Shown: positions 14,655 through 50,482 of the stretch, piece after piece
Numbering within the stretch: the first letter of the stretch is position 1
Layout: every line of letters begins with the position of its first letter
NCBI GenBank assembly: GCA_024276795.1
Contig: JAJRWK010000272.1
Span: forward strand, 1-50,482
Reading direction: 5' to 3'
From: an archaeon
GTDB taxonomy: Archaea; Asgardarchaeota; Heimdallarchaeia; Heimdallarchaeales; JAJRWK01
DNA: 50,482 nucleotides
Notes under the pieces: model-generated
Seen by the model: only the letters and a program-made list of their open reading frames with translations
Databases searched by the model: none
Told to the model about the DNA's origin: nothing
Position numbers and translations under genes: made by a program

Positions 14655-14694
14655 CGTTTTTCTCTCCGTGCATGACCCTTTTCTTACTTCAATG

Positions 14695-15693: not shown

Positions 15694-15909
15694 CTTGGAT
15701 CCTCTCAAAAAATTAATTCCTACTTTAACCTTAGGCTCTTTATACTTTTTATCTATTTCTCATAAAAGTATCAGCAGATTGAATTTAAGTCTTGGAACCG
15801 AGAGATTAGCTGAAAACAAAAAGCTAGGAAAAAACATTCCTCACATAATGGGAATAGGGAAAAAGAAAGGAGGAGACAGAGGAGTAGTAGCTTCGTTAGG
15901 AGAGTGAAC

Positions 15910-17679: not shown

Positions 17680-18103
17680 TTGTTGGTGCTGATTTCTTTA
17701 CAATTGAGTCGAGAACTGCAATTGCTTCTTCAAAGTCTTCTTGAGCTACCGTAAATGGACTGTACCGTGCAATCTCGAATTGCAAGATAATTGGTTCGAA
17801 AAGGTCGGGGTCTATTTTGGCTTTTTCCGCAAAGGCTTTCGAATATTCTCTTGCTGTTTGGCTTGGTTTTCGAGGCAAGTCCATCTTAGTGCTTCCGTAT
17901 TCTACTAGAGCTTGGAACAGGTGAACCGATGCTGCGTTGTAGTTGCCATTATTCGCCTCGTTTTCTGCGGCCTTGCGGGCTTTCTTGTAGCTTCCTGTGT
18001 CTACTTTGGGTTTCATCCCAAAGATGCCCTTCAATTTGTCTATGAAGGACTCTTTCTTTTCTTCTTTTCTTCTTCTTCGGGGTGGTCTTCTACTACTCCT
18101 CAA
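17594..18103 (-). CDS. DUF4129-like domain protein with Arg/Lys-rich termini
   Basis: NGNYNAASVHLFQALVEYGS...KPSQTAREYSKAFAEK...ILQFEIARYSPFTV matches the DUF4129 pattern ('A..G.y..A...ly......l........T..Ey... f..arYs'). The track start is TTG; an ATG alternative lies at 18016. Confidence 0.55.
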   Translation of the reverse strand: MRSSRRPPRRRRKEEKKESFIDKLKGIFGMKPKVDTGSYKKARKAAENEANNGNYNAASVHLFQALVEYGSTKMDLPRKPSQTAREYSKAFAEKAKIDPDLFEPIILQFEIARYSPFTVAQEDFEEAIAVLDSIVKKSAPTIEAKTKGKGEKRGGKRPARARARPRRQA

Positions 18104-21100: not shown

Positions 21101-22172
21101 CTGAGCCGTTCCATAACTGTACTTGGAAATTGACATCGACAGTTACATTGATGAGAATAAAACCGGAGGGATCATTTACAACATTGAAATTCGGGTATTG
21201 CGTTCTAAGGTTTGAAATCGAATTAGGGGTCAGGACATAGCTGACATTTATTTTTCCTCCGGGTGGAAGCTGGTCTCCGATAGGGTTGGAAAAGACAATA
21301 GGTTGAACAGAGAAGTCACTTGTTACAGGAGTAACAGCACCAGGATCTGTGAGGTTAATTCTAGTTTCGCTAAAAGTGATTCCAGCAACATTTGTCAGTA
21401 CTGGTGTTCCATTGTCAAAAGAGAGTTTCGCTGTAAATTGATATTTAGCAGTGGAACTCGCTGAAATTGTACCGGGTGAGTCCATTGTTACCGAGAAACT
21501 CATCTGACCAATCACGGTGATGGTACCTGAACCCGCGACTCCTGCTTCTCTTCCGAGGGTTGGGTTGCCCCAGAAGTAAACAACAAAGTCGTGGCTACCT
21601 AGCTTGGACTGAGCGTTCCCTTCGTTAAGGTCAGTGGGAAGAATAAAATCGTACTGGCCATCTGCATTGGTAATATCGCTTGTTAATAGATAATTAGTAT
21701 CTAAGTAATTTCTAGCATTTGATCCTAATGTAGTAAGTATATTCTCAAATTCTGTTGTATTGATATTCCAATACAAATAAACTGTTTCATCACTCCATCT
21801 GTCATAGGGACCAGTCCACAACAAACCGCTGATAAGGATGTCATTTCCTCTCGTTATGGTTGCTGTTCCACCAGACGGAACGACTAAAGTCGAGAGTTTC
21901 AGATCAGCTTCAGTATTTCTCTTGTCTAGCCCCGCATTCTCCGTGCCTATTCGTGCTACTTGATCAGTAATTGAAAATGATCCTTGGGGATGTGAGGAGC
22001 GCGAGAGAGAGCTTGATGATGAGATGTCTGGAACTGAATATCTTGGCTTAGTTGGGAAGCGTTTGTTTGCTTTGGGAGAAAGCTCTCCAATAGTTAAATC
22101 GGTAAAAGCCAAGCTACTACCAATGAAACAAAGAATCAAGAATGTTGTAAGCACTACCCGTTTGTTTTTCAT
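18093..22172 (-). CDS. giant secreted/surface protein (1359 aa) with C-terminal TM anchor and cytoplasmic DUF4129-like tail
   Basis: Signal peptide MKNKRVVLTTFLILCFIGSSLAF. A long beta-rich ectodomain carries well over 30 N-x-S/T sequons by eye. TM segment NIVIIIVVFLLVLTGVMIFY is followed by GKYRRAVQLAYRAMEEL...TVREFADYL...ESYEKAKYS (DUF4129-like). The ATG directly follows the upstream stop (TAAATG at 22170..22175). Confidence 0.8.
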   Translation of the reverse strand: MKNKRVVLTTFLILCFIGSSLAFTDLTIGELSPKANKRFPTKPRYSVPDISSSSSLSRSSHPQGSFSITDQVARIGTENAGLDKRNTEADLKLSTLVVPSGGTATITRGNDILISGLLWTGPYDRWSDETVYLYWNINTTEFENILTTLGSNARNYLDTNYLLTSDITNADGQYDFILPTDLNEGNAQSKLGSHDFVVYFWGNPTLGREAGVAGSGTITVIGQMSFSVTMDSPGTISASSTAKYQFTAKLSFDNGTPVLTNVAGITFSETRINLTDPGAVTPVTSDFSVQPIVFSNPIGDQLPPGGKINVSYVLTPNSISNLRTQYPNFNVVNDPSGFILINVTVDVNFQVQLWNGSAYETRSYVVQKRDDYFAANVTITQSQNGSTAGVPDRLITLELIQNSQVKATYQQKTTTTGILIFNVTLPNTLYTQAGYPVFAKFTYENTTDTVQPGYVQTFKIIFNATVTTIQAKIVDSQYFRTLQESVTVVGNVTDEFGRPAKGVTIYAYYDFSISLKSFTTITDANGEFRLTMTFNNLDATGQTQDTLNFWINFDPTPLPLTGSEEVVWSGTSSALNFASLNIVRSIQLQFRTYEFNSTNDLNPIIQIFNSTFADYFNGVTISNFTNLAKVFVIIVKDQAGRAPIGVRVEIFHQGRSIQNVTVDSVNNGLVTYDPTLPATNFDTKILNNGGSASWQTKVYSRIDTSLAQSGITYSLWGPDIYAPVFTTQTPGEAPGLTYLQGQPVPRYNVTITITVDDNAQSKTGIKEVILYYRYALNDTTYSLNIGDYTAATMSTADGITYTYKILFPDGSIFPDGNSHGKWVHYFIVAFDYAGYGYNISSGTRFTTPQYDPNYSNNATLLNNGQPFMYQIGDGSPPQVDLGNDLLINQTRLSVYAGNQQEPGVLNVTIVIVDSGGIQSVQIGIRNRTVVWVEDQALALSAFVNTSNWGEWSNYTMNFAPGLSDPTNGVYAYTILINSTLEYEIEVDFAFTIVDSGGNIVATPTASQTLEAIAPEALNRLPKLVDQTKPVQVPPTSVEYNGTQIPNGYEFGNQTGYLNVTVVFSDDGTGIEPTATYINFIYFYTNDSANPLINASLLMQAWTNGTPLLFEFSIRNTDNLTSYTWSATGIAHLYTSGEFKVTFTIPLLPASFLNTSETWPTNIALIWSVSVQDQAGNKADPVTNTYLVQKYVPPPSRVVLEDETTKGGPNIVIIIVVFLLVLTGVMIFYRWPAIMGYFRKREQLGRITASLRQKLDEIKRLGAEGKYRRAVQLAYRAMEELASKNLYAPRLENQTVREFADYLATLTPVAPSTLRLIAESYEKAKYSNEEITFEDFDNVVKALEVTTQTIAKIGVKAFEE

Positions 22173-25100
22173 TTAATTCGGCCTCCTCACTAATACTTGA
22201 GAAATGCGATCCATGTCCATGACTCCTTCATTTAAATAAGTAATTGCATTGGCTATCCGTGGTAAAGTATAACTTTGAAGTTTGTGAACCTTGGGGATAC
22301 CGATTCTCGGGGAAGAGCCATGGTCTATATCTACAATTTTTTGCTGCTGATTGCTCATCGTTAAGGGCAACGGTGCTCCCGTAAGAATGAGACCAGTTCC
22401 ATGTTGCACATGGTCTCTTCCATCTTTTGTGATTGCTACTATCCTCCATGTTCCAACTCCGATGACGGAAACATTAGAGAGTACTAGAGTTATTGAGACC
22501 GTTCCTGTGGTATCCGTATAGCCAAACCAAGTTGTTAGATTAAGGTATTCAGTCTGGTTGGTCCATGTGGCCATCTGTGCTTCAAGAGTGTCGTATGACA
22601 TTGATTCGGTGTAATAGGTGTCTTTAATGAGATAGTAGCGAATGAGAATACCTTCTGCATTCTTCTGGTCGATACCAGCGGTTTGTGAGAATGCAATAGC
22701 TTGAGTAGTTACTGAGAAAGATACAGATTGTTGTGAACTCTGAGAAAGTGATTGGCTATCTGGTGTGGTGCCTTGAGCAATTAAAACGATGTCATTGGTT
22801 ACGTATACGAAGAAATAGCCATATACATCTGTTCCCTGCCAGTGAGCGGCCACGATATACAAACCGCTATCTGTTGGTTTGAAAACGACAGTTGTGTTGG
22901 CAATGCCTGAAGAGTTAGTAACTGATGAGCTAAAGTTTTGTCCAACGAACTGTGTGAAATCAATGTTTGCGGGATCTGCGATGTTATCAGAGTCAAGCAG
23001 ATACCAATCAATTCCTTCGTTGGGGAGCGAGTTTCCAGTGTCTACGTCGGTTAGGTTCGCAAAAGCTGGAATGGATGAATCTGGGACCGTTATGTAGCCA
23101 GTAACGTTTTGATTCTTTTGCGGGTCTTGATATTCAACTTGTTTGGCTAGTGTAAACACTTCGATGTTCCCAGAAGCCAAAAATCCAACACCTGAATAGC
23201 CATAGCTCAGACCAGAAATTGCGATAAGTGCATATACATTATATGGCTGTGATTGGATATTGAGCCTGTTAACTTGGGTGTTTGTTCCTTCTATTGTTCC
23301 GTTGCCAGCGATCTTGGTTCGATACTCATATCCTCCAGTAGAATTAGTCGTACCGTCTGCTAATAGAATACCATTTTCGTCAAGAATCTGGAGCGCAGTT
23401 CCTAAATCTCCTTGGTTGATTGCAGCAAGCATTGCGTTCAGATTATTTTCGTCTAACAGTTTCAATGAAAATGCTTGGGAAGGTAACGGATTTCCACTTC
23501 CATCTCGAGCAATGACATCCACAATCATATCTTTTCCTAACGGCTGAACATAGACTTGAACTCGATCATTGCCCATTGTAACTTGTTGGATCGAGGTCGA
23601 GGTCCTCACAGAGACTTGGAAGTTCCCGCTTCCTCCAAACGCGTTTCTACCATAATCTAAGATTGTACCACCGGATGCTGCAAGAATATTTGCATCTGGT
23701 ATCAAGTTGAATATAGCCCAGCGATAAGAGATTCTGCCATTGTCATCACTGACTGGAATCAAGACTTCTGTCCAATAGTGAAGATTCTTGTTCCTAATTT
23801 CATAGTGTGGACCCGTTGCGTCGCTAATGTAAGTTCCAATGCTGTAGCCCATGATTGGTCTAGCTGGAATATATAGTGCCCTAAGCATTAGAACAAAGGA
23901 GAGAACGAGCTCTTCGATTCCGGGTGAGCCTCCATCGTAGACAAAATATGCGGGATCTTGGCCTTCAGCATCGGGATTACTGGGTAATAAATTATTGAGG
24001 TCGAGATAGTTTGCAACCAGATCATTGTAAACCATCTGAACTACTTCAAAAATAGTCTTGTTTTGTGCTTTGGTCAAGTAATTATTGTAGGCATTTTGAA
24101 AACCAGTGGATCCCGTTACATATTGAGATCGGGTGATGCCTGTAAATGAGTCGCCACCCCAGCGACCTTGGACGTCACTATTATACAAATTACTAACTTG
24201 TGAGTAATTCAATGATCCCGACACGACCTGTGACTTATTTTCGGGATACCAATATCCAGTATACGATGAGGTCGCAAAAAATTCAGATTCTGAACCGTCC
24301 GCAAATTTCGCACTTATGAAGGGCTGATTGCCAGAATTATTGCTAACTGATGCCTCAACAACGTTCGCTCCCACAGGATTAGAGATCCCAGCCGCGAAGT
24401 CAATATTTTCCAAATCACTTCGATAGAGTGAATTCCATGTTGTTAGGAGCTCTTGGTTTGCTTGATTAGAAATAACCGTTAGATTCAAGTCAAATCGCAA
24501 ACGCTTTGCCCCTTGAATATTGGAAGGAATATCCGTTCTTTCGTTGTGGAAAGTCATTGTGGTTAGTTCTTGAGAAGAGGGCAGATCAAAATCTTTTTGC
24601 GTAAAACTATATTTCTCGAATGCCCGCCAGCGATATAAGTAGTGATCCTGCGTCGCGTCCATCGTTTGACCATCGTCTGCAGCATAAACTTTCATCACTA
24701 CGTAGTCGCCGCTGAGTAGTTGTTGGGCTAGATCTCTTAATGATTCAAACAAATCTGACAAGAAGGGAGAACTGAGAAAACTTGTATCGATGTCTCCGTA
24801 AAGAGGAGGATTTCCTTCAAGTTGTCTAGTATAGAGGAACTGTGTATAGAAAGGTTGAAGCATTGATGAAATAATAAGTCCTGCCATGACGATGGCAAGG
24901 AATAAACCGATGCCTCTAGGCCATCGTTTAATGTGAAAACCAGCGTACCAGCCTAGGAAACCTAGTGTTATTGCTAACCAAAATCCAGCAGTTCCTTGAA
25001 GAAGGTCTAGGGGGAATGCTACTGTCGTGTGGAGAAAAGACACCTCAGAGACGTACTTGTCAATTAGAAAGATTCCTGCTGGGATTGATAATGTTGTTCC

Positions 25101-25238
25101 GCTGAAAACCTTTGTCCATGGAATCTTAACTCGTCTTTTTTTCTTGATTACGCGAGCTCTAGAAACGGGTCGCCTTCTTGTTCGGCGACCAGCAGATACT
25201 GGGACGTCTGAACTGCTGGGGGCACTGGCTTCACTCAT
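22173..25238 (-). CDS. transglutaminase-like membrane protein (core apparently lacking catalytic Cys and Asp) with Ig-like C-terminal repeats
   Basis: Basic N-terminus and about 3 TM segments. The TGase-core-like block is GSPGIEELVLSFVLMLRALYIPARPIMGYS...LHYWTEVLIP...RWAIFNL. Start set at the ATG at 25238 (MSEASAPSSSD...); the track ORF extends to 25322. Confidence 0.75.
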   Translation of the reverse strand: MSEASAPSSSDVPVSAGRRTRRRPVSRARVIKKKRRVKIPWTKVFSGTTLSIPAGIFLIDKYVSEVSFLHTTVAFPLDLLQGTAGFWLAITLGFLGWYAGFHIKRWPRGIGLFLAIVMAGLIISSMLQPFYTQFLYTRQLEGNPPLYGDIDTSFLSSPFLSDLFESLRDLAQQLLSGDYVVMKVYAADDGQTMDATQDHYLYRWRAFEKYSFTQKDFDLPSSQELTTMTFHNERTDIPSNIQGAKRLRFDLNLTVISNQANQELLTTWNSLYRSDLENIDFAAGISNPVGANVVEASVSNNSGNQPFISAKFADGSESEFFATSSYTGYWYPENKSQVVSGSLNYSQVSNLYNSDVQGRWGGDSFTGITRSQYVTGSTGFQNAYNNYLTKAQNKTIFEVVQMVYNDLVANYLDLNNLLPSNPDAEGQDPAYFVYDGGSPGIEELVLSFVLMLRALYIPARPIMGYSIGTYISDATGPHYEIRNKNLHYWTEVLIPVSDDNGRISYRWAIFNLIPDANILAASGGTILDYGRNAFGGSGNFQVSVRTSTSIQQVTMGNDRVQVYVQPLGKDMIVDVIARDGSGNPLPSQAFSLKLLDENNLNAMLAAINQGDLGTALQILDENGILLADGTTNSTGGYEYRTKIAGNGTIEGTNTQVNRLNIQSQPYNVYALIAISGLSYGYSGVGFLASGNIEVFTLAKQVEYQDPQKNQNVTGYITVPDSSIPAFANLTDVDTGNSLPNEGIDWYLLDSDNIADPANIDFTQFVGQNFSSSVTNSSGIANTTVVFKPTDSGLYIVAAHWQGTDVYGYFFVYVTNDIVLIAQGTTPDSQSLSQSSQQSVSFSVTTQAIAFSQTAGIDQKNAEGILIRYYLIKDTYYTESMSYDTLEAQMATWTNQTEYLNLTTWFGYTDTTGTVSITLVLSNVSVIGVGTWRIVAITKDGRDHVQHGTGLILTGAPLPLTMSNQQQKIVDIDHGSSPRIGIPKVHKLQSYTLPRIANAITYLNEGVMDMDRISQVLVRRPN

Positions 25239-25508
25239 GTTTTTCCCTTCACTGATGGTAATTGTGATAGAACCTATTATACAAACATAATCTTTTGGGT
25301 TAAAAGCATTATCCAGTCTCAATTCAGCAAGTCAAAATCAAGAAGAATAGACTAGATGGATCGCTAAACAACTCATTGATTTTTTCTTGCTTGAACCCTT
25401 AGAATTGGAAAACTAATACCCAGCAGGAATAGATTGTATTGTGTGGTTATCTCATTGAGCTTTTAAAAGAAATAAGGGGACACAAATAGGCGCTGAGACG
25501 TCGCGATC

Positions 25509-28134: not shown

Positions 28135-30021
28135 CTACGTCTCGAATTTGGAAAGCACGCGGATAAGTTCTTGAGAAAGGTTAGAAAGCTCATTTGCAGT
28201 ACTACTTACCTCTTCCATCATTGCTGTCTGCTCTTCAGATGCGGCATTGGCTTCTTCCGAGCCAGCAGCGTTTTCCTCTGCCACTTCTCTTACCCTCTCC
28301 ACGGCTCTGGCAACATCCTCGACCGTCTGCTTTAGTGTTCGGTTAATGGTGTCTACAAGGTCCGCAATCTCTTCAGCACGGCTCTTTGTGTCGTCTGCGA
28401 GTTCTCTGATGCTTTGAGCAACAATGCCGAAACCTCTTCCGTAAATTCCTGCCTTCGCTGCTTCAATGGAGGCATTCAGTCCGAGAATGTTTGATCTCTT
28501 GGATACCTTTCGTACAAATTCTGCCGCATCAGTGATCTTTTCCGAAGCCTCACTGACGTATTCGATTAATTCGCGCAACTGTTCAGATACGCGGTTAACC
28601 ATTTCTGTCTGTTCACTGGCGCCATAGCTGATTTCAGAAACCGTTGCTGACACTTCCTGCACACTGGATGATGCTTGTTCTGCAGCCGCAGCCAACTCTT
28701 CAGAAATTCCTGCAACACGTTCTGCTACTTCTTGGCCTTGGTGAATAACTTCTTTCATCGAAAGAACCATCATGTCGAATGCTTGTTGCACTTCTGAAAG
28801 CTCGTCGGTTCCTGTTGGATTAAAGAGATCGACTCTGAGATTTCCTTGGGAAAGCATTGTTGCTTTCTTTCTCAGATCACCTAACGGTGGAATTATCTTA
28901 GCGCTACTGATGGCAATAAGGAACGCGACTATGATGATTGTTACTATGTTTACTGTCAGAATTGTTTGTTGTGTCTGTTGTTTCTGGAAGGAAACTTCTT
29001 GTCGCTTTCTTTGGACGTCTTCTTGGAGCAGTATTGCAAGATTGTCGAGTTTTTCGACTAGATTTCCAAGACTTCCCGGTATTCCAGCACTGGCACTACT
29101 CGTGATTCTACCAATATCACGAGTGAGAGTGAGAATGTCTAGAAGATTTTGCGAAATAATTTCTGAGTCTTCGATAATATCTTCGATGAGATTGAGAAAT
29201 ATTGGGTCTAGGAACGCTTTTTCCGTTGAATTTAGAATTTCAGTACTAGCATTAGTATAGGTTGCATTGATGCCTTGAAGGGTTAAAGCAAGATTATCCC
29301 GAATTGTGCCCACTTGTTCTTCGGTGAAACTTTCTACAGATAAAGCAAGAAGATTGGACAGTTCAGCTTTCGCCTTGACTTGAACTTCACTCCACAGCTG
29401 AGCAATTAGAATTGTGGAGTTGAGGATTCTGATTGCTTCTGCTTGATCCGTACCAATGATTTGATTTGCGTATTCAGTTCTATTGTCAAGCCATGATTGA
29501 ACATACGTGTTATTGCGGTCTATTTCTTCTTGAATATGAGCGGAGGCGTCATAACTGATTTTGTTGAGCCCTATGATTTGTTGGATTCTGGATTCCACAG
29601 CATACAAGTAATCAAAAATAATGTCGATCTCTTCGGTGAATGTTTGTCTGATATCATCGACTGCAATGGTGAAGTTTTCAGAGAATTCGTCTTGAATCGT
29701 GCTTCGTTTTTCTGCAGTATCTATGAATTCTGAATATGCAAGGAGAATATCATCCAGAATCGACGACCTAACAAACGAGGACTGTGTTCCAATGCTCTTC
29801 GTAGTGAATGTTGCGTAGCTTTCATAGAGTATTCTCAGGGTCGTTGTCCGAAATTCTAGAAGCTTTTCGAAGATTTCGGTGTTGATATTGGCCGCTTCTT
29901 GTCTTGGTGCAATTTCTGTTCGATCGAAATAGATAGGAGCAGTGGATGTAATCGCGAAAGATGTAATTATCACGATGAATGAAATCAAGAGTATAAATCG
30001 GATTTGGCTATAGAATGCCAT
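28135..30021 (-). CDS. methyl-accepting chemotaxis protein (TM, large extracytoplasmic helical sensor, TM, HAMP, signalling domain)
   Basis: MCP hairpin motif KRSNILGLNASIEAAKAGIYGRGFGIVAQSIRELADDTK. HAMP-like segment PPLGDLRKKATMLSQGNLRVDL...DELSEVQQAFDMMV. The ATG at 30021 is preceded by GAGGAG 8 nt upstream; the track start at 30075 is less likely. Confidence 0.85.
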   Translation of the reverse strand: MAFYSQIRFILLISFIVIITSFAITSTAPIYFDRTEIAPRQEAANINTEIFEKLLEFRTTTLRILYESYATFTTKSIGTQSSFVRSSILDDILLAYSEFIDTAEKRSTIQDEFSENFTIAVDDIRQTFTEEIDIIFDYLYAVESRIQQIIGLNKISYDASAHIQEEIDRNNTYVQSWLDNRTEYANQIIGTDQAEAIRILNSTILIAQLWSEVQVKAKAELSNLLALSVESFTEEQVGTIRDNLALTLQGINATYTNASTEILNSTEKAFLDPIFLNLIEDIIEDSEIISQNLLDILTLTRDIGRITSSASAGIPGSLGNLVEKLDNLAILLQEDVQRKRQEVSFQKQQTQQTILTVNIVTIIIVAFLIAISSAKIIPPLGDLRKKATMLSQGNLRVDLFNPTGTDELSEVQQAFDMMVLSMKEVIHQGQEVAERVAGISEELAAAAEQASSSVQEVSATVSEISYGASEQTEMVNRVSEQLRELIEYVSEASEKITDAAEFVRKVSKRSNILGLNASIEAAKAGIYGRGFGIVAQSIRELADDTKSRAEEIADLVDTINRTLKQTVEDVARAVERVREVAEENAAGSEEANAASEEQTAMMEEVSSTANELSNLSQELIRVLSKFET

Positions 30022-30252
30022 CTTTATTCTCCTCGCATTTATTGTTACTATTCCCACGAAACACGTTATGATCACTGTTTTTTTAGCTCGGATTCTGATC
30101 GATGATCGTGGATAGTTCTACTGAAAAGTAATTACAGTCCAGTTTTTTTAACTCTTGCGTGAATTTGAAGGAAGGGTAATAATAGATCGGGAGAAAAGAA
30201 GGAACTAGTTGATGCTTCTAACAACGATGATTCTTTTGGTGGAGTCTTCGCT

Positions 30253-42817: not shown

Positions 42818-43720
42818 TCATATTGAACTTCGTTGATCTAACACAATTCGGATGAATTCGAAAAATATGCTTAGGATGGTCGCTGTAATTATAGCCCAAG
42901 AAAAGTCTAGAAATTCTTGCAACAAAGCGTCTGAATCTACAAATGACAAAAATGCCATGAAGCTGAATGCCCCCATGAGCAACAAGCCACTGAAAAATCC
43001 AAGGATCTTTGGTAATTTGCCAGTGGTGAGCCTCTTCTCTTTTGGGAGAGCAAAAGCATCGAACAGAATGATGAGGCCAACGGCCATTGCGAATGAGAAG
43101 ATTATCAGCCCATGACGTTCAACAATGCCTAACATTGTTTCTCCGTTGTACAAGAAGGGGAGAACAGAGAAAGGCAGTAAGACAATCAGAGAAACAAAAA
43201 CCTCTAATGCCTTGAATGGCTGTTGTTCAACAACGAATAATACACCGATCAAAAGAAGTAGAACAGAAGCAATGGCATTTAGTGCCAGCATTTTGAATTC
43301 AATAGTTTCAAGATTATTTGCCCAATCGGCCACGGAACCTACCTGTAAGTTTTTCATAGTTACATAGTTCCACAAAAAGTCCAGAATGTTTGTACTTGTT
43401 TGAGCAGCGAAAATCCAACCAAGCAACCATGTAGTTACTGATAAGGTAGCGAGTAATTCAATTATTATGCGAAAGATACCGGCTTTGTCTTGATTATTCT
43501 CTGGCCTAAAGGACACGACTCTGATATCAGAGTCCTTTTTGACTGCTAAGTTTTGGTACTCCTCATTCAATCGTTCAAGGTATGCTTCTTGTTTTTCTTT
43601 TTCTTCAATAAGCTCAGGGGTTTTGCCGTGCGTCTTGAGTTTTTCCTCTAATTCTTTTAGCTTGTTTCTTGTTTCTTCAATTTCTAGGCGGATTTCATGC
43701 CGCATTCTTTTAGTACTCAT
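42818..43720 (-). CDS. membrane protein: N-terminal coiled coil plus ~6 TM segments, translationally coupled to the upstream ATPase
   Basis: The sequence TAA-GAGGAGCGGAG-TAA-ATG links the ATPase stop (43735..43737) to this ATG at 43720. The N-terminal 60 aa are charged heptad-like (EIEETRNKLKELEEKLKTHGK...). Confidence 0.7.
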   Translation of the reverse strand: MSTKRMRHEIRLEIEETRNKLKELEEKLKTHGKTPELIEEKEKQEAYLERLNEEYQNLAVKKDSDIRVVSFRPENNQDKAGIFRIIIELLATLSVTTWLLGWIFAAQTSTNILDFLWNYVTMKNLQVGSVADWANNLETIEFKMLALNAIASVLLLLIGVLFVVEQQPFKALEVFVSLIVLLPFSVLPFLYNGETMLGIVERHGLIIFSFAMAVGLIILFDAFALPKEKRLTTGKLPKILGFFSGLLLMGAFSFMAFLSFVDSDALLQEFLDFSWAIITATILSIFFEFIRIVLDQRSSI

Positions 43721-43734
43721 TTACTCCGCTCCTC

Positions 43735-45579
43735 TTACACAATTTTTCGCAATCTATCTATTTTATTTTGTAAGGCTGTTTTTGCATGCATAGGAGTTAG
43801 AGCCTCAGGATTATACCCAAGGAACCACTTTCTTTTTTCCCGGTCATAGGATAAGTATTCCCCTATTTCAAGTTCTGTAATTAGGCGTTTGATTTCTGGA
43901 GTCAGTAGATCTGCAAGAGGTGAAGATTGATCTAGACGTCTTAGTCTAAAGATAGCAACTTCGGAGTTGCTTAATACCCAGGGATCAAATTCTGGCAGCT
44001 GAGAAATGCTGATTTGGAATAGCCCGAATTTTCTTCCTTCTGAAGATATGCTTCGAACCCATTGACTGCCTGCAAGCCTCTGGGCTTCTTCGTTTACTAG
44101 AATTGTTTTTTGCTTGAGTCTGCCTTCAATTGCCATTTGTAAAAGATGTTTCATGATGGTTTCAATGACGATATTGGCAGTTTCTGTATCTCCTAGTTGA
44201 GCCCAAATAGCTATGATAGGAGGTTCTTCGGCATTACCAATTGGAAAAATTTTGTCTTCGTCCTTTTCCAATACCGCTTCTACTGCATCAATAATGAAGT
44301 TTCTAACCATTGGTCTTGTCTGTTCCTGAAATGTTTTCATCTTAGCTGCCAGGTCTTCTGGATTCATGCCCTTTTGAGCGAATAGTTGTTGCTGTTGTTG
44401 CATGAATTCTCTGGCTTGCTCGAATGTTTCTCCCAATTCTTCCAGTGGATAGTATAAGGATGCCTCTTCTTGCTCTTCGCCCCCAAACTGCACGATGTAG
44501 TCAGCAATATCTGCGTATTCAAAGTGGTGATCAAAGATTACTGTGGCTGTCTGTTGGATTCTTCTATTCTCTTTAATGACATGTCGCGCAAAAGTAGTCT
44601 TCCCACTACCTGTTTGCCCAACTACTGCAAGATGCGGAGGCCCTGCTGGATTTGCACCCAAAACAGGAGTATATGACACCTTACAATCGATCCCATGGTA
44701 ATTTCGAACTTTCAAGTATTTTCGGATCAGATCCTCGAGAACCTTGATTTGTGGGTCATCTAGGATTGTGTGGGGAATTATTTTTGAGGGGACGTGGCTA
44801 ATTTCGGGAAGATCAACAATGTCTTGAGACGAAGCGCGGATTTTTGCTTCTAGAGCCAAGAGCCTTTCCTCAAGATAGGAGAAATCAAAACTCACGTAGG
44901 GTCGTAGATTCCTCAAGACTCTGATAGCATCGGAGTAAAAGCCTAGGCCTCGTTCTCTTCGCTCGAGCATAAGCGCCAGTAAGGACAGAAAATCACGATA
45001 AATCTTGGTTGCGACCTTAGTTGAATCCCCTGAAAAAAGCTTAGAGAATAGTCCTTTCTTTGTTTCATCAATCTGAGTCCTTATTTCAGAGATTAGTTCG
45101 TCCTTTTTCTCTCTCGCATATTCGAGATATCTGATCCCGAAGTCGAGGTGATCCTCAAGTAATAGATTAACCATTATCTGCAGGATTTGTTCTATGGCTT
45201 CTACTCCTTCCGCCAATTCAAGCGCTTTTACACGAGCAGCTGTGGCCTCTGTCAGGTCAGCATTCAGTCTTTCCAGTATCCTTGCTTTGAATTGGTTGGC
45301 AAAAAGAATGAAGAATGGACCTAATTTAGCGAACTTAGGTGCATCTCGGTCGCCTTTTTCATCAACAACTTCCATTATTCTGACAAGTCGACGGCCTAAT
45401 GAGAGAGCATCTGCTCTCTTTCCAACGCTTTCAAAATAGAGAATGGCTTGTTCATAGTCTAAGAATCCTTCTATGAATTCTGATGGAAGTCCTCTAGCGA
45501 TAGCTCGTTTTATTCTTTCCTCGGCCTGTTTTGCTTTCTCTCTCATGTTTTCTTGGTAAGTACTCACTTGCTGTGTCAT
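43735..45579 (-). CDS. HerA/FtsK-superfamily (DUF87-like) P-loop ATPase with ~300-aa helical N-terminal domain
   Basis: Walker A VVGQTGSGKTT, Walker B-like KTILVNEEAQRL, and SSEGRKFGLFQISISQLP ('eGRK.G....l.sQrP') are typical of HerA/DUF87 ATPases. The N-terminal domain is helical, not a HAS barrel. Confidence 0.75.
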   Translation of the reverse strand: MTQQVSTYQENMREKAKQAEERIKRAIARGLPSEFIEGFLDYEQAILYFESVGKRADALSLGRRLVRIMEVVDEKGDRDAPKFAKLGPFFILFANQFKARILERLNADLTEATAARVKALELAEGVEAIEQILQIMVNLLLEDHLDFGIRYLEYAREKKDELISEIRTQIDETKKGLFSKLFSGDSTKVATKIYRDFLSLLALMLERRERGLGFYSDAIRVLRNLRPYVSFDFSYLEERLLALEAKIRASSQDIVDLPEISHVPSKIIPHTILDDPQIKVLEDLIRKYLKVRNYHGIDCKVSYTPVLGANPAGPPHLAVVGQTGSGKTTFARHVIKENRRIQQTATVIFDHHFEYADIADYIVQFGGEEQEEASLYYPLEELGETFEQAREFMQQQQQLFAQKGMNPEDLAAKMKTFQEQTRPMVRNFIIDAVEAVLEKDEDKIFPIGNAEEPPIIAIWAQLGDTETANIVIETIMKHLLQMAIEGRLKQKTILVNEEAQRLAGSQWVRSISSEGRKFGLFQISISQLPEFDPWVLSNSEVAIFRLRRLDQSSPLADLLTPEIKRLITELEIGEYLSYDREKRKWFLGYNPEALTPMHAKTALQNKIDRLRKIV

Positions 45580-45753
45580 CTGCTACCACGATCACTCGTT
45601 ACATACGGAAGGAACTAATTTGGATTTGATTTCCTTCCCTTTATAATTTTTAGTAGCTTTTTCAGAAATATCTTAATGGCAATAACTACCCGCTTGGCAA
45701 AATAAGACACGCCTAATCGTCACAAATGAAACAATTGATAGAAAATTCTAGCG

Positions 45754-46344
45754 TTAGAGTGAATTCCATCCCCTATGGCCACAACTTGAGCATCTATAGT
45801 ATACTCGCTCATTTTTGACTTCGATGTCGTCTTTTTTGGTGAGTAATTTCCCGCAATTCTTGCAAAGATCTGATCGACGAGCCTCCACTTTCTCCATGAG
45901 GGGCTGGAACGGCTTCCATTGACGAATCCTAGTGAGAATACACGTTTCACAAGAGAAGTCCCTGCACTCATCAAAGAATTCTTTGAGGGGAGTACGTGTG
46001 CACTTAATTCTTACGAAAAACTCGGTAGGAGTTGTTAAGACGAGATGATCTGAGAAAACATTGGGAACTGATCTGCGAATCAATTGAATCATTTCAAGGT
46101 TATAGATTTCGTTCTGAAAGAGGTAGTGTAGTCCTTGTTCAGCAGTAGGTCTTTCATTTGCAAGATCTTCGGTGAGAGCAAGAATTCTCATGGCTTGAGC
46201 GTGTGGAAACATTCGCGAAAGCACAACCATCAGGTCATTTTGGTTCTGCCCCATCAAGCGTTTCAGGAAGCGTTTTGTGAGAACCTCGGCGGATTCTTTG
46301 ATTTGGGAGGCACTCTCGGTCTGCTCTGGATCACTCATTATCAT
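45754..46344 (-). CDS. hypothetical protein with C-terminal Cys4 zinc ribbon
   Basis: CKNCGKLL...(17 aa)...CSSCGH, plus an upstream CRDFSCETC. A TATA-like AATAAATAAAAA lies about 25 nt upstream of the ATG. Confidence 0.6.
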   Translation of the reverse strand: MIMSDPEQTESASQIKESAEVLTKRFLKRLMGQNQNDLMVVLSRMFPHAQAMRILALTEDLANERPTAEQGLHYLFQNEIYNLEMIQLIRRSVPNVFSDHLVLTTPTEFFVRIKCTRTPLKEFFDECRDFSCETCILTRIRQWKPFQPLMEKVEARRSDLCKNCGKLLTKKDDIEVKNERVYYRCSSCGHRGWNSL

Positions 46345-46491: not shown

Positions 46492-47892
46492 TTAGATGAA
46501 GTCTCCTCTCTCTATTTTTTCTGGCAAATAGTGATTGGTGATAAATTGGGGATCTCTTGCATTGAGAGCTTGTATTTCTGCCTTGATTCCAAGGTCAAGA
46601 AGGACTTGTAGTTGTTCCCTCCATTTGGGTCTCTTAAGAACGAATTCTTCATCTAAGAGTCTCCGAGCTTTCTTGACATCAGACTGGCTCATTTTGATAA
46701 AGGCGCTTTTTGGAATGCCAAATCCTGAATCTTCCATGAGATCTGTAGGTAAGAGTCCAAGCCATTTGATATTAGGCACTGCAAGTGTTCTTGCTTCAAA
46801 ACTAAGTGCTTTGCTTCCCACTGTGTAAACTCTCATGATTTCGAAACCATACACATCTGCATCCATGATTGCTAAGATGGGTAGCTGGAGTTCATCGTTA
46901 ATTTTTCTGAGAAATTCTCTCGTAGCCATATCTGGTTGTCCTTTTGCCGTTACGAGGATGGAAGGCACATAATCGTAAAAGTGGTCTTCTGCAAGACGGT
47001 TGAAAACTGCATCTTTCTCAACGACAAGAACGAATTCAGCGTCGCTTTCGAGGTTATCGATGTCATCGATGTTTGGAGCAATAGATTTGCCAGAACCAAT
47101 AGCCCTGCAGTCGATGTAGTCTCCTCTTTCTGTGAAGGAGAGTCGACCAATCACGACACCCTTGCTTGTGGCCCAGATATTCATTGACGAGCGTGTTACT
47201 TGTAACATTGCTCCTAAGTCTTCAATCAAAGCATCGCTAGTGGATTGGGCTTCGAATTCATTGACGGCCATGTAGAAGAGGTCACGTTTTGTTGTGTGTA
47301 TTTCACGGTCTAAAACTTCGTATAGAATTCTCATCAAAGTTGACATTTGAGCTACGCTCTTGACAGATGAAAGGCTCCTGAACTGGCGCTCAATCATTTG
47401 TCTTCCAAGAAGAACCATTTGTAATTCATCGTCATAGCTAATATTGTCTTTTGATCTGCTGGGGATTCTGAAGGAGGCTGAATGAGGATTGTAAAGTGCA
47501 TCAAAGATGAATTCTTGGGCTTTCTCTACCAAGATTCTTTTTGTTTCAGGAGCGGGCAATTCATCTACTCCAATCACTCCGTAAGGGAAGTCGGTATCGC
47601 TGAGCTCCTTGAATTTTAAGATTAATTCTTTGATGGCTTGAGTTGAAACATATCTTTTTATGTCAATTTTACTTTTCCCTGCTTCTAATGGATAGTCAAT
47701 AAGTTTCTTATTGGGATCTAGTCGGTACCATTTCTTTCTAGTCCGCAGAAAAAGAACAATTTTTTTGGATTTGGGAATCTCGGCTAGTTCTTTTAGCTGT
47801 CGCTCAATAGCTGAGACACTCATTTCAGGATCTATTTCCGCAACATGATCTGTTCCGGGAAGAACAGTTGAGTTTCTAACTTGTAACTTCAT
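46492..47892 (-). CDS. top6A: DNA topoisomerase VI subunit A / Spo11-family protein with ~100-aa N-terminal extension
   Basis: 5Y-CAP motif TKRDLFYM (compare Spo11 RDIFYS), Toprim VLVVEKDAVFNRL and IMDADVYGFEI, and C-terminal KAEIQAL. The ATG at 47892 is preceded by AAGAGGTG (7-nt spacer) in the 17 nt after the upstream stop. Confidence 0.85.
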   Translation of the reverse strand: MKLQVRNSTVLPGTDHVAEIDPEMSVSAIERQLKELAEIPKSKKIVLFLRTRKKWYRLDPNKKLIDYPLEAGKSKIDIKRYVSTQAIKELILKFKELSDTDFPYGVIGVDELPAPETKRILVEKAQEFIFDALYNPHSASFRIPSRSKDNISYDDELQMVLLGRQMIERQFRSLSSVKSVAQMSTLMRILYEVLDREIHTTKRDLFYMAVNEFEAQSTSDALIEDLGAMLQVTRSSMNIWATSKGVVIGRLSFTERGDYIDCRAIGSGKSIAPNIDDIDNLESDAEFVLVVEKDAVFNRLAEDHFYDYVPSILVTAKGQPDMATREFLRKINDELQLPILAIMDADVYGFEIMRVYTVGSKALSFEARTLAVPNIKWLGLLPTDLMEDSGFGIPKSAFIKMSQSDVKKARRLLDEEFVLKRPKWREQLQVLLDLGIKAEIQALNARDPQFITNHYLPEKIERGDFI

Positions 47893-47909
47893 TCATCGCA
47901 CCTCTTAGT

Positions 47910-50441
47910 TCATTTCTTTTTTGTTTTTCTCCGAGATCCCGAGGGGCTTTTCTTTGATGATGCACTTTTCTTGGACTTAGAAGCAGATCCCTTTTTCGTA
48001 GCTGATTTCGACATTGCTCCGCTAGTTCTTGATTTCTGGAATGACTGTTTTGTGCTCGAAGTCATCTCAGTAGTCTTTGATTTCCTGTCTGAGGAGCTTG
48101 GTTGCTTTTGTTTTGAAGATTTTGATTTCATTGGTTTTGTCTTCTTGATCTCTTTTGTTTCTAGTTTTTTGGAAGTCTTACGGGATTTTGTCTTTGCCTT
48201 GGGCTTTGAGCTCTGGGGCACTTTTTCGGCTTTTGGTTTGGGAGAGAGGGACGGAATCTTAAACTTGATCTTGCGTATTGCAGCGTAACTAAGTCCGGTT
48301 TCTTCATGGATTTTCTTATCTGGTACGAATAAGAATTCGCCCCATGTTTTGATCTGGAGCGATTTTCCCATAACTGAGCCTAGCTTGGAGTCAATTAGTT
48401 CTAGAGGGGTTTGAAGTCTGCGTGTAGCTTTCGAGAGCTTTTCTTCTAGTTCCTTTGTCAACCCCTTCTGTCTGATAGCATTAGCAGAAACAAGTTGCCT
48501 AACATCAATTATGCCAAGCCCCTTAAGCGTTTCTTGATCTTGAGCTCGGATCTCAGGGAAGTCCTTGAGCTGAGGAATTTTGATTTTGCTTGCGATTCTG
48601 AGCTCTTTAGAGCTTAGATCAGCAATTGCTTTTTCCAGAAGTTCATCGCTTATTTTTGCTTCTTTCAAAACCCATGATTTTGGTAAAAATAGTAGTTGGT
48701 CGATTTGGTTGACGTTCTTCTTGATTAGACGCAGAATGGCAGTAGGAATAGTTTCTGTTAGAGTAATGAAATCATAGAGGGGGCGATGGAGCGTTTCCTT
48801 GGTGCTGTAATAATTCTTTTCTGTTACTCCTTTTATCTTCTGCAAATGGACGGGACTAAGGGCAAGGAATTGCTGAATAGTGAGACATCCGCTTTCACGA
48901 AGTGTCTGGATCTGTGGACCAGGAAGAATTGAAAGCAGATTGATAGGATATCCATTATTCTGGAATTGAGTCTTGATGTCTAACGAGAGTAGTTTGTCGA
49001 CGTAAGCATTCAAGTCAAATTTCTTGAGCACCTTGTTGTTTTGATACGCTGTTACAATCTGGGGCAGTAACAAATGGATTGAGCGTGAAATTCCAATGGA
49101 ATAAAGGTGAAGTACGTCTGAGGCTGATTCTAAAACAAAAGTAATCGGAATTGCGCCTACAATTTCAGTAAGCGGTTTGTGTTCATACTCAAAGAAGTAG
49201 TCGTTGACGAGAGCATCCATTATTTGTTGTGTTTCATTGTCTAGAGCGTTGAAAGACACGGGCTTATGTTTTAAGATTTCTTGGGTAAGAGACACGTTTT
49301 CCCCATCCAGCAAAGCGGCTCGTATGTTTTGAGACAAAATGGGGTTGAGAGATGCTATCGTTTCCTCAAATTCTTTTATGTTGTCTTGGGTGAATTCGAT
49401 GAATTTCCAAGTTGGCACCTCAAATGCAGCTTTTGCCTCGGCAAGTAACTCAGAGACACCTAACGCTATGAAAATTTCTGGGAGTTTGCTCGGTAGAAGA
49501 ATAACGTCTTCAAGAAATGTTACACCAACGCTTAGTAACTGATTTGTTAAGTCTCCAATGAAATGAATGTCCTTGATTGCGAAGAGCCCATCTACAGCAT
49601 TGTTCGTTACTATTTGATCTTTCAAGGCTTCAGCTTTAGTGACAGAGATTCCAAGCTTCTCAGCTAGCTCTTGGGATGATAGGTACAGAATTTGGACTCT
49701 AGATGATAGTCCAAGTCTGATTAGTTTTTGAGCAATCTTCGAATCCAATGTTTGAAGCCTGATCGGATTAGCTAAAAGATAGGGAACTATAGCTTTCTTC
49801 AGAGCTGGAGTCAGTTGACTGAGTGATTTGGAAGTAGAATGCAACAGCTGGTTGAGGGATTGGATTCCCAGGGTTTCAGCTTCCTTCTTCGGCAGATCTG
49901 GAATAATCTCAAGTAATTGATAATCTTTTTCAATTGATGGTGAATCTGCTAGTACTTTGAAGATCTGTTTTCTCTTTGCTGGTGGGAATTCGAACCAGCT
50001 CTTAATGATCAGATCTTTTAACGGTAATCCAGAGTCTTGGGCATCTAGTGTTTTGGCCAGTGCGGGGATGGAAGAAACTTTTGTGGTTAGAAATTCGTCA
50101 ATTTTTCTCGCAATTTCTGCAGGTATATCAAGGGAACCTTGATTTGAGAGTAGATCTTCTATCGTATAGATCCCCCATTTTTCAAAGAAACGCTTCTCTT
50201 GGGCTTTCAGGTTGGGAACAATTTCCAAGGACAATCCTGCCTCACGCAATTTCTCAGCGTCTTCCGCTTTTTCAAATCTGGACATGATTGATCCAAGGGA
50301 AGATTCACCGCGTAAGACGAATTCTCTCGCAATGTCTTCTAAGTTTCTTATCCTACTTTCCCACAATTCTACTAGCTGTTGCTTCATGCTTGGATAAGTT
50401 TCTGCAAGGTAAAGAGTTGAAGCCTTTACAGCTCTCCTCAT
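47910..50441 (-). CDS. helix-hairpin-helix (DUF4332-like) repeat protein with 114-aa Lys/Ser-rich C-terminal tail; N-terminus may lie outside the window
   Basis: At least 7-8 copies of an 'x-L-x-x-x-G-[ILV]-x-[ST]-[ILV]-x-[DQ]-[LF]-[LV]' HhH-like motif, for example FFEKWGIYTIEDLL, AETLGIQSLNQLL, LIRLGLSSRVQIL, AEKLGISVTKAEAL, LRESGCLTIQQFL and LKGLGIIDVRQLV. The tail is KPKAEKVPQSSKPKAKTKSRKTSKK...SRRKTKKK. The reading frame stays open from 50441 to the right edge at 50482, so the true start may be further upstream. Confidence 0.75.
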   Translation of the reverse strand: MRRAVKASTLYLAETYPSMKQQLVELWESRIRNLEDIAREFVLRGESSLGSIMSRFEKAEDAEKLREAGLSLEIVPNLKAQEKRFFEKWGIYTIEDLLSNQGSLDIPAEIARKIDEFLTTKVSSIPALAKTLDAQDSGLPLKDLIIKSWFEFPPAKRKQIFKVLADSPSIEKDYQLLEIIPDLPKKEAETLGIQSLNQLLHSTSKSLSQLTPALKKAIVPYLLANPIRLQTLDSKIAQKLIRLGLSSRVQILYLSSQELAEKLGISVTKAEALKDQIVTNNAVDGLFAIKDIHFIGDLTNQLLSVGVTFLEDVILLPSKLPEIFIALGVSELLAEAKAAFEVPTWKFIEFTQDNIKEFEETIASLNPILSQNIRAALLDGENVSLTQEILKHKPVSFNALDNETQQIMDALVNDYFFEYEHKPLTEIVGAIPITFVLESASDVLHLYSIGISRSIHLLLPQIVTAYQNNKVLKKFDLNAYVDKLLSLDIKTQFQNNGYPINLLSILPGPQIQTLRESGCLTIQQFLALSPVHLQKIKGVTEKNYYSTKETLHRPLYDFITLTETIPTAILRLIKKNVNQIDQLLFLPKSWVLKEAKISDELLEKAIADLSSKELRIASKIKIPQLKDFPEIRAQDQETLKGLGIIDVRQLVSANAIRQKGLTKELEEKLSKATRRLQTPLELIDSKLGSVMGKSLQIKTWGEFLFVPDKKIHEETGLSYAAIRKIKFKIPSLSPKPKAEKVPQSSKPKAKTKSRKTSKKLETKEIKKTKPMKSKSSKQKQPSSSDRKSKTTEMTSSTKQSFQKSRTSGAMSKSATKKGSASKSKKSASSKKSPSGSRRKTKKK

Positions 50442-50482
50442 TTGAAGTAATCGTGCTGTATCGCTGGGAGTAAACTCGGCAA

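What the first reader, a model, noticed from the sequence alone, without database searches (positions are those of the whole stretch)
47593..47892. Top6A/Spo11 with a translated ~100-aa N-terminal extension that threads onto a ubiquitin-like beta-grasp
The catalytic Tyr (TKRDLFY) is at aa 207, whereas characterised archaeal Top6A proteins have it near aa 103-106 (from memory). The region C-terminal of the Tyr has the normal length. The strong AAGAGGTG 7 nt before the ATG at 47892 supports this start. So does the absence of any in-frame ATG downstream that would keep the CAP domain intact (the only ones are M24 and M159). Residues 1-80 (MKLQVRN..DHVAEIDPEMSVSAIERQLKELAEIP..KIVLFLRT..WYRLDPNKKLIDYPL..SKIDIKRY) match the ubiquitin beta-beta-alpha-beta-beta-beta spacing, including the 'IP' after helix 1 and an 'L.DY' turn. 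A UBL-fused Spo11/Top6A would be unusual.
Basis: partly seen in the sequence, partly recalled or inferred. Interest (0 to 1): 0.7.

Follow-up and report, generated by a model that had tools for sequence, protein, structure and literature searches.

The report
Ubiquitin-like domain on Asgard topoisomerase VI-A
The DNA-cutting subunit of topoisomerase VI (the archaeal relative of the meiotic enzyme Spo11) in this Asgard archaeon really does carry a built-in, positively charged ubiquitin-like domain at its front end; the domain is conserved across Asgard archaea, was not found in other Top6A/Spo11 proteins including eukaryotic ones, and was not mentioned in the papers I could search.

Summary
ORF 46492..47892(-) is a 466-aa Top6A/Spo11 with its catalytic Tyr at 207, about 100 residues later than in solved archaeal Top6A.

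Evidence that residues 1-82 are a ubiquitin-type beta-grasp:
- AF2 gives pLDDT of about 90 for this region.
- The top 50 Foldseek hits in the PDB are ubiquitin, NEDD8 and UBL domains.
- A family profile hits ubiquitin (hhalign 93.7%; 12 of 30 members hit PF00240).

The domain has no Gly-Gly (0 of 63 sequences) and is basic: +7 here, mean +6.2 across the family. It is under purifying selection (dN/dS 0.07). A short helix follows it, which I equate with the published "alpha1".

The architecture is standard in Asgard archaea, in 60+ species-level genomes from Heimdall-, Hod-, Kari-, Thor-, Loki-type and other lineages. I did not detect it in about 145 other Top6A/Spo11 representative clusters, a diatom protein among them.

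The "843-aa ORF" 17 nt upstream is open to the window end. It is the 3' fragment of a giant Top6B (2,200-4,300 aa elsewhere) with helix-hairpin-helix arrays, found upstream in 52 of 53 loci.

Function is inferred only: a fixed interaction module at the A/B junction. I found no paper describing it.

The parts
47647..47892 (-). Ubiquitin-like beta-grasp domain, aa 1-82 of Top6A. It is basic (net +7) and has no C-terminal Gly-Gly.
   Evidence: AF2 pLDDT about 90. Foldseek hits are ubiquitin/NEDD8/UBL. Profile to ubiquitin. Pfam on family members. dN/dS 0.07. Charge and GG count.
47563..47646 (-). Linker, aa 83-110. It contains an amphipathic helix (aa 85-94, coordinates 47611-47640), which I equate by position with the published 'alpha1' helix of Asgard/eukaryal TopoVIA. 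It also contains the invariant P103 of the PYGV motif (47575-47586).
   Evidence: AF2 helix H85-94 and H85-92, with linker pLDDT about 69. P103 is 100% and V109 98% conserved. The alpha1 helix is described in bioRxiv 10.1101/2022.05.08.491100.
46495..47562 (-). Canonical Top6A/Spo11 core, aa 111-466. By position I take helix 114-134 to be the Top6B-binding helix (inference). The core also holds the 5Y-CAP with R203 and Y207, and the Toprim domain with E292 and D344/D346. The stop codon is at 46492-46494.
   Evidence: Pfam. PDB sequence hits. Foldseek to M. mazei Top6A 9o0g, TM normalised to target 0.87, rmsd 2.4. Invariant columns.
47272..47274 (-). Codon of the catalytic Tyr207.
   Evidence: TKRDLFY at aa 201-207; invariant in 53 sequences.
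47899..47906 (-). Shine-Dalgarno-like AAGAGGTG, 6 nt upstream of the ATG at 47890-47892, inside the 17-nt gap after the upstream stop codon.
   Evidence: Read directly from the sequence.
47910..50482 (-). 3' fragment (857 codons) of a giant Top6B gene: a helix-hairpin-helix-like repeat region followed by a 115-aa Lys/Ser-rich tail. The reading frame is open to the end of the window.
   Evidence: There is no in-frame stop in 50442-50482. The region is collinear with the last 2.3 kb of a >3326-aa Top6B ORF in L006. 52 of 53 related loci have such an ORF upstream, and 24 of them show the Top6B GHKL/transducer N-terminus. Pfam on full-length examples.

Best explanation
The gene encodes the A subunit of an Asgard-type topoisomerase VI. 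A permanently attached, non-conjugatable ubiquitin-like domain (aa 1-82) is joined through a short amphipathic helix and a flexible linker to the helix that I take, by position, to bind Top6B, and then to a normal 5Y-CAP/Toprim cleavage core.

Shown: the fold, its ubiquitin-family affinity, the lack of Gly-Gly, the basic charge, purifying selection, restriction to the Asgard 'conserved copy' clade, and operon linkage to a giant Top6B with HhH arrays.

Inferred: because the Top6A N-terminus sits at the A/B junction beside the DNA gate, the basic UBL acts there as a fixed interaction module. It would contact either flanking DNA or the HhH-rich C-terminal region of Top6B or another partner. In this way it would tune DNA capture or holoenzyme assembly rather than serve as a transferable tag.
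For: Fold and family:
- AF2 pLDDT 88.7 and 87.1, pTM 0.83, for the full length.
- Foldseek hits are ubiquitin/NEDD8/UBL.
- Profile hits ubiquitin in the PDB; hhalign 93.7%.
- PF00240 in 12 of 30 members and precomputed for P0071 and P0075.

Not a tag: 0 of 63 sequences have GG at the junction.

Basic character: net charge is +7 against -11 for the core, with a family mean of +6.2. Basic residues at positions 50, 53, 54, 79 and 80 are conserved.

Selection: dN/dS is 0.07.

Context: a giant Top6B-HhH ORF ends from 4 nt overlapping to 181 nt before the Top6A start in 52 of 53 loci. HhH arrays are instead fused to the Top6A N-terminus in Asgard paralogues P0126 and P0127, which ties this junction to DNA-binding add-ons.

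Position: published models place the Asgard N-terminal helices at the A/B interface.
Against: No partner, DNA-binding activity or docking site was tested. Model coordinates and PAE were not available, so I cannot say whether the UBL packs on the core or floats; linker pLDDT is about 69. No ubiquitin-binding domain was found in the Top6B C-terminal regions by Pfam. HhH-Top6A paralogues work without a UBL, so the UBL is not required for HhH tethering. The positive charge could serve an acidic protein partner rather than DNA.
Confidence: 0.55

Rival explanations
1. The UBL is a built-in ubiquitin-type signal, UBX- or Rad23-like. It recruits Cdc48/p97, the proteasome or other ubiquitin-binding factors to Topo VI, for example to extract or degrade Top6A trapped covalently on DNA.
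For: 11 of 30 family members hit the Npl4 UBX-like family UN_NPL4, best E 1.8e-4. Positions I map onto ubiquitin's L8/I44 patch (L11, L47) are 95-97% hydrophobic (the mapping is my inference from the alignments). From general knowledge: Asgard archaea encode ubiquitin systems and Cdc48, and eukaryotic type II topoisomerase adducts are handled by Ub/SUMO-dependent pathways.
Against: There is no UBX 'FPR' loop motif; I judged this by eye on the window sequence. No Cdc48 or ubiquitin-system gene is linked to the locus in the window or in the loci inspected. The UN_NPL4 hits may only reflect a generic beta-grasp. The strong positive charge is atypical for shuttle UBLs.
Confidence: 0.2
2. The UBL is an intramolecular regulator, as in Parkin or USP-type UBLs. 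It docks on the Toprim or 5Y-CAP domain of its own or the partner protomer and gates cleavage or dimerisation.
For: The full-length model has pTM 0.83 with a confident UBL. The helix after the UBL has conserved hydrophobic positions I87, L90 and F94. Published models suggest that the alpha1 helix packs near the Toprim T2BI box. As a precedent, the SMCHD1 UBL stabilises its GHKL ATPase module (title of PMC6620310).
Against: The linker at 91-110 has pLDDT of only about 69. No coordinates or PAE were available to see any contact. The UBL evolves about five times faster than the core (pN 0.076 against 0.015).
Confidence: 0.18
3. The UBL is a cleavable ubiquitin-fusion precursor, like the eukaryotic Ub-ribosomal protein fusions, that releases a free modifier.
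For: It has the ubiquitin fold and lies at the N-terminus.
Against: 0 of 63 sequences have Gly-Gly between residues 76 and 100. The junction is a conserved basic strand running straight into a helix.
Confidence: 0.02
4. The extension is an annotation artefact: translation really starts at GTG106, TTG112 or TTG121, and codons 1-100 are not expressed.
For: In-frame alternative starts exist at codons 106, 112 and 121.
Against: The extension is conserved in 60+ species-level genomes. dN/dS is 0.07. The fold is predicted with confidence. A Shine-Dalgarno-like sequence lies 6 nt upstream of the ATG at 47892.
Confidence: 0.01

Closest known systems
Archaeal Top6A (M. mazei 2q2e/9o0g, S. shibatae 2zbk, M. 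jannaschii 1d3y)
   Same: The 5Y-CAP and Toprim core, the R-x3-Y catalytic pair and the E/DxD metal site are shared. Foldseek TM normalised to target is 0.80-0.87 and sequence E-values reach 8.5e-57. A top6B gene lies immediately upstream.
   Different: The solved enzymes start about 100 residues later and have no UBL; the alpha1 helix is reported absent from characterised archaeal TopoVIA. Their Top6B is about 500-600 aa (from my own knowledge), not 2,200-4,300 aa.
Eukaryotic TOP6A/SPO11-3-type proteins (for example the diatom protein P0124)
   Same: They are the closest non-Asgard relatives at 42-46% identity. They are reported as sister to the conserved Asgard copy (PMC12680538) and share the extra N-terminal alpha1 helix.
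   Different: Their N-termini are low-complexity and basic, not a UBL. The Asgard UBL HMM finds nothing in them.
Ubiquitin/NEDD8 and integral UBL domains (USP11/USP15 UBL, Get5/Mdy2 UBL, Rad60 SUMO-like domains)
   Same: The beta-grasp topology is shared, as are the F45-equivalent (F48), the L-x-D-Y turn (L64-Y67) and the 'IP' after helix 1.
   Different: There is no Gly-Gly, so the domain cannot be conjugated. It has a 5-residue longer beta3-beta4 hairpin and a net charge of about +6 against 0 for ubiquitin. It is fused to a topoisomerase.
SMCHD1 N-terminal UBL-GHKL module
   Same: A UBL is fused in cis to a member of the GHKL/topo VI-related machinery, and it is needed to stabilise the ATPase module (title of PMC6620310).
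   Different: In SMCHD1 the UBL is on the ATPase; here it is on the DNA-cleaving A subunit. There is no evidence of homology beyond the fold.
Asgard HhH-Top6A paralogues (P0126 of 950 aa, P0127 of 746 aa)
   Same: They are Asgard Top6A proteins with an accessory module added at the same N-terminal position.
   Different: The module is an HhH repeat array, not a UBL. Identity to the window protein is 41-42%.

Membership tests
Top6A/Spo11 (type IIB topoisomerase A subunit) | 5Y-CAP/winged-helix domain with the catalytic Tyr and the Arg four residues before it | tested here: met
   R203 and Y207 lie in TKRDLFY and are invariant in 53 sequences. PF04406 scores 1.3e-18, 66.9 bits against a cut-off of 26.
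Top6A/Spo11 (type IIB topoisomerase A subunit) | Toprim domain with the acidic metal-binding residues (E and DxD) | tested here: met
   PF21180 scores 1.1e-57. E292, D344 and D346 are invariant.
Top6A/Spo11 (type IIB topoisomerase A subunit) | Overall fold superposes on solved Top6A | tested here: met
   Foldseek hits 9o0g (TM normalised to target 0.87, rmsd 2.4), 2zbk (0.80) and 1d3y (0.84).
Top6A/Spo11 (type IIB topoisomerase A subunit) | Cognate Top6B (GHKL plus transducer) partner | tested here: met
   The upstream ORF fragment is collinear with the 3' end of Top6B-containing ORFs. The N-terminal GHKL part itself lies beyond the window end.
Top6A/Spo11 (type IIB topoisomerase A subunit) | ATP-dependent double-strand passage activity | not testable with these tools
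   This needs a biochemical assay.
Ubiquitin-like beta-grasp domains (Pfam PF00240 and related families) | beta-beta-alpha-beta-beta-(3-10)-beta beta-grasp fold | tested here: met
   AF2 secondary-structure order with pLDDT of about 90. The top 50 PDB fold hits are all ubiquitin, NEDD8 or UBLs.
Ubiquitin-like beta-grasp domains (Pfam PF00240 and related families) | Sequence-profile match to the ubiquitin family | tested here: inconclusive
   At family level the match holds: 12 of 30 members hit PF00240 (best 2.1e-7), hhalign gives 93.7%, and the profile finds PDB ubiquitin at E about 1e-4. The window sequence alone scores 13.1 bits, below the 25.4-bit gathering cut-off.
Conjugatable ubiquitin-type modifiers (Ub, NEDD8, SUMO, SAMP, Urm1) | Exposed or processable C-terminal Gly-Gly | tested here: not met
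   0 of 63 sequences have GG between residues 76 and 100. The chain continues into Top6A.
ThiS/MoaD/SAMP sulfur-carrier beta-grasp proteins | Profile similarity to ThiS/MoaD | tested here: not met
   No ThiS/MoaD family appears among the 25 most-matched of 40 Pfam families hit by the 30 members at E up to 1. The top 50 fold hits contain no ThiS/MoaD structure.
UBX / p97-binding UBLs | R...FPR signature in the S3/S4 loop and binding to the Cdc48 N-domain | not tested
   There are only UN_NPL4 Pfam hits, in 11 of 30 members. By eye there is no FPR motif in the window sequence. Binding cannot be tested here.

The most novel reading that the evidence does not exclude
The Asgard Top6A UBL is a genetically hard-wired ubiquitin mark. 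It would couple the Spo11/Topo VI lineage to ubiquitin-recognising machinery (Cdc48/proteasome or UBD proteins) in the archaeal ancestors of eukaryotes. On this reading it is a cis-encoded forerunner of the Ub/SUMO-dependent control and removal of type II topoisomerase and Spo11 DNA adducts, later replaced in eukaryotes by trans modification when the domain was lost.
Probability: 0.12. Interest if true: 0.8.

Novelty: new variant of a known kind. Interest (0 to 1): 0.58.

Why it matters
Top6A is the archaeal orthologue of Spo11, and the Asgard 'conserved copy' is reported as the sister of eukaryotic Top6A/Spo11 (PMC12680538). A ubiquitin-family domain conserved across this clade, paired with a giant HhH-decorated B subunit, suggests that Topo VI in the closest archaeal relatives of eukaryotes was already an elaborated, probably regulated machine. 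Since I could not detect the domain in eukaryotic Top6A/Spo11, it was probably lost on the way to eukaryotes. The finding gives a concrete, testable handle (enzyme with and without the UBL, UBL pull-downs). It bears on how accessory modules shape type IIB topoisomerase function, and on what non-conjugated ubiquitin-like domains did before the eukaryotic ubiquitin network expanded. The two papers that modelled or analysed Asgard TopoVIA contain no mention of ubiquitin.

Tried and rejected
1. The search for homologous proteins with the N-terminal profile A1 returned nothing at E up to 1e-3. This is probably a limit of the word-index step. The search was wasted, and I replaced it with the representative-library search, a genome scan and a local HMM.

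2. Pfam on the window's N-terminus alone is sub-threshold (E 0.082), so I relied on the family profile and the structure model.

3. I could not retrieve model coordinates or PAE, so UBL-core docking and surface exposure could not be assessed. The mapping of L11 and L47 onto ubiquitin's L8 and I44 is by alignment only.

4. Downstream genes were considered as functional partners: a Zn-ribbon protein of 196 aa, a HerA/DUF87-like ATPase of 614 aa and a 300-aa ORF. I rejected them as conserved context because they recur only in the 85%-identical relative (L005) and not in L001-L004.

5. I looked for ubiquitin-binding domains in the Top6B C-terminal regions. Only HhH-type families were found.

6. 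The cleavable Ub-precursor and mis-called-start readings were rejected.

7. ThiS/MoaD/SAMP/Urm1 affinity was rejected.

8. Six literature searches found no description of a UBL on Top6A.

9. The ORF listing shows 47910..50441 as a complete 843-aa ORF, but the frame is open to the window end.

Full report
**The observation**

ORF 46492..47892 on the minus strand encodes 466 aa. Pfam finds TP6A_N at 179-239 and the Top6A/Spo11 Toprim domain at 287-460. TKRDLFY ends at Tyr207. S. shibatae Top6A (2zbk_A) aligns from query 135 to chain 34, and M. mazei Top6A from query 127 to chain 25. The window protein therefore has about 100 extra N-terminal residues.

However, GTG106, TTG112 and TTG121 are also in frame. 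AAGAGGTG lies 6 nt, not 7, upstream of the ATG.

**Is the extension real protein?**

- All of the 120 best database homologues for which the catalytic-Tyr motif could be located place the Tyr at 175-238, nearly all at 204-238. They are 434-496 aa long apart from two fragments.
- A scan of species-representative genomes gave 68 loci, all from Asgard MAGs or genomes. The record titles name Heimdall-, Kari-, Hod-, Borr-, Sif-, Hermod-, Thor- and Promethearchaeota.
- Every complete ORF in these loci is 463-495 aa with Tyr at 206-237. The one apparent exception is L068 (434 aa), which still encodes the full N-terminal sequence upstream of its first canonical start codon.
- Against the closest genome (L006), codons 1-82 have pN 0.076, pS 0.58 and dN/dS 0.07. 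The core has pN 0.015.

The extension is therefore translated and selected, but it evolves about five times faster than the catalytic core.

**What is the extension?**

- AF2 on residues 1-110 with a 30-sequence alignment gives mean pLDDT 88.7. The elements are E2-7, E14-19, H26-36, E45-51, E54-57, a short turn at 63-66 and E74-80, followed by helix 85-94.
- The same elements keep pLDDT of about 90 in the full-length model, which has pLDDT 87.1 and pTM 0.83.
- The top 50 Foldseek hits in the PDB are ubiquitin and its variants, NEDD8, ISG15, the USP11/15 UBLs and the Get5 UBL. E-values run from 2.4e-4 to 1.2e-3, and TM normalised to target is mostly 0.6-0.78 for the single-domain ubiquitin/NEDD8 targets.
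- An HMM of the extension finds mono-ubiquitin chains at E 4e-5 to 5e-4 in the correct register. hhalign against human ubiquitin gives 93.7% probability, E 1.9e-7. It pairs F48 with ubiquitin F45 and L64-x-D66-Y67 with L56-S-D-Y59, with a 5-residue insertion in the beta3-beta4 hairpin.
- Of 30 family members, 12 hit PF00240 (best 2.1e-7), 11 hit UN_NPL4 and 5 hit Rad60-SLD. No ThiS/MoaD family is among the 25 families listed. The window's own sequence reaches only E 0.082.

Two features set this domain apart from ubiquitin itself. None of 63 sequences has Gly-Gly at the junction. And it is basic: +7 here against -11 for the core, with a family mean of +6.2 against 0 for ubiquitin. Basic positions 50, 53, 54, 79 and 80 are conserved.

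It is therefore an integral, non-conjugatable ubiquitin-like domain.

**Distribution**

In a library of 1.84 billion representative proteins, 3883 are Top6A/Spo11 relatives at E up to 1e-3. Among the best 150 clusters, only P0031, P0121 and P0156 align over query residues below 95. A local HMM of the UBL finds only P0121, P0156 and P0294 among 174 retrieved sequences.

The closest non-Asgard relatives are 42-46% identical. They include a diatom protein (P0124) and similar sequences. Their N-termini are basic and low-complexity, not a UBL. Ten other long-N-terminus representatives show no ubiquitin-family Pfam hit.

**Genomic context**

The '843-aa ORF' 17 nt upstream (47910..50441) has no in-frame stop up to the window end. 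It is collinear, at 65% nucleotide identity, with the last 2.3 kb of a >3326-aa ORF in L006.

In 52 of 53 related loci with enough upstream sequence, a giant same-strand ORF ends between 4 nt of overlap and 181 nt before the Top6A start. Where the whole ORF is visible it is 2194-2346 aa and begins with the Top6B GHKL and transducer domains. The Heimdall-type ORFs exceed 3320 aa, reaching 4301 aa in Ca. Heimdallarchaeum endolithica.

Pfam shows HATPase_c, Topo-VIb_trans and then many helix-hairpin-helix-type matches (RAD51D_N, HHH_5, RNA_pol_A_CTD). In a few genomes the HhH part is a separate gene that still sits directly upstream of top6A (L002/L055, L017, L045). In Asgard paralogues P0126 and P0127, HhH arrays are fused to the Top6A N-terminus instead, without a UBL.

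The window thus holds the 3' end of a top6B-top6A operon for an elaborated Topo VI.

**Mechanism (inferred)**

From the holoenzyme literature (my own knowledge, consistent with the models described), the Top6A N-terminus binds the C-terminal end of the Top6B transducer, next to the DNA gate. Brinkmeier et al. describe an extra N-terminal helix alpha1 in Asgard and eukaryal TopoVIA, and large C-terminal domains in Asgard TopoVIB. By position I equate their alpha1 with H85-94 here, and their B-binding helix with H114-134.

The UBL hangs immediately N-terminal of alpha1 on a linker of moderate confidence (pLDDT about 69). A basic, non-cleavable UBL at this junction most plausibly acts as a fixed interaction module, contacting flanking DNA or the HhH-rich Top6B C-terminal region or another partner.

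The rivals are recruitment of Cdc48 or ubiquitin-binding machinery, and intramolecular regulation. Neither is excluded, because no coordinates, PAE or multimer prediction were available.

**Comparison and novelty**

The core meets every testable Top6A criterion. The N-terminal domain meets the fold criterion for ubiquitin-like domains but fails the Gly-Gly criterion for modifiers.

Two papers analysed Asgard TopoVIA in detail: Nat Ecol Evol 2025 (PMC12680538) and bioRxiv 10.1101/2022.05.08.491100. Neither contains the word ubiquitin. Six full-text searches found no description of this architecture. Precomputed Pfam annotation does flag PF00240 on two homologues, so the signal exists in databases.

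I rate it a new variant of a known kind. It is solid as an observation and moderately surprising, and its function is open.

Noticed in passing
window 47910-50482 (-), and loci L003, L006, L011, L042, L046-L072: The Asgard Top6B is a giant protein of 2,194-4,301 aa. A normal GHKL plus transducer N-terminus is followed by long arrays of helix-hairpin-helix-type repeats; in the window fragment there is also a 115-aa Lys/Ser-rich tail with 39 K/R and 40 S/T. From my own knowledge, this recalls the HhH arrays of Methanopyrus topoisomerase V. The window holds only the last 857 codons.
   Followed up: partly
window 47910-50441: the ORF listing reports this as a complete 843-aa ORF starting at an ATG. 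There is no in-frame stop between 50442 and the window end, so it is a truncated ORF and not a stand-alone gene.
   Followed up: yes
proteins P0126 (950 aa) and P0127 (746 aa), from Loki/Thorarchaeota MAGs: A second kind of Asgard Top6A has 5-9 HhH2-like repeats fused directly to its N-terminus and no UBL. The same junction has thus been decorated in two different ways.
   Followed up: partly
L002/L055 (CP070760), L017, L045: In some Heimdall-group genomes the HhH-repeat region is a separate gene of 424-3018 aa with no detectable Top6B N-terminus. It still sits immediately upstream of UBL-top6A, which suggests a split B subunit or a third subunit.
   Followed up: no
window 42818-46344 (-): Downstream of top6A lie a 196-aa C-terminal Zn-ribbon protein, a 614-aa HerA/DUF87-like P-loop ATPase and a 300-aa ORF with no Pfam hit. 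The trio recurs in the 85%-identical relative L005 but not in more distant genomes. Its function is unknown.
   Followed up: partly
window 13101-25322 (-): A cluster encodes a MoxR AAA+ ATPase (AAA_3), a DUF58/VWA protein, a DUF4350 protein, a 1359-aa DUF4129 protein and a 1049-aa transglutaminase-like protein. It looks like a MoxR-VWA-type system next to very large proteins.
   Followed up: no
window 6509-7507, 10287-11417, 28135-30075 (-): Chemotaxis components are present in a Heimdall-group contig: two MCP-signalling proteins and a CheR methyltransferase.
   Followed up: no
L068 10001-11383: The first canonical start codon would truncate the UBL, giving 434 aa with Tyr at 175. Yet the full UBL sequence is encoded in frame upstream, after a stop codon. 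This points to a non-canonical start codon or a sequencing error. P0021 (434 aa) looks the same.
   Followed up: partly
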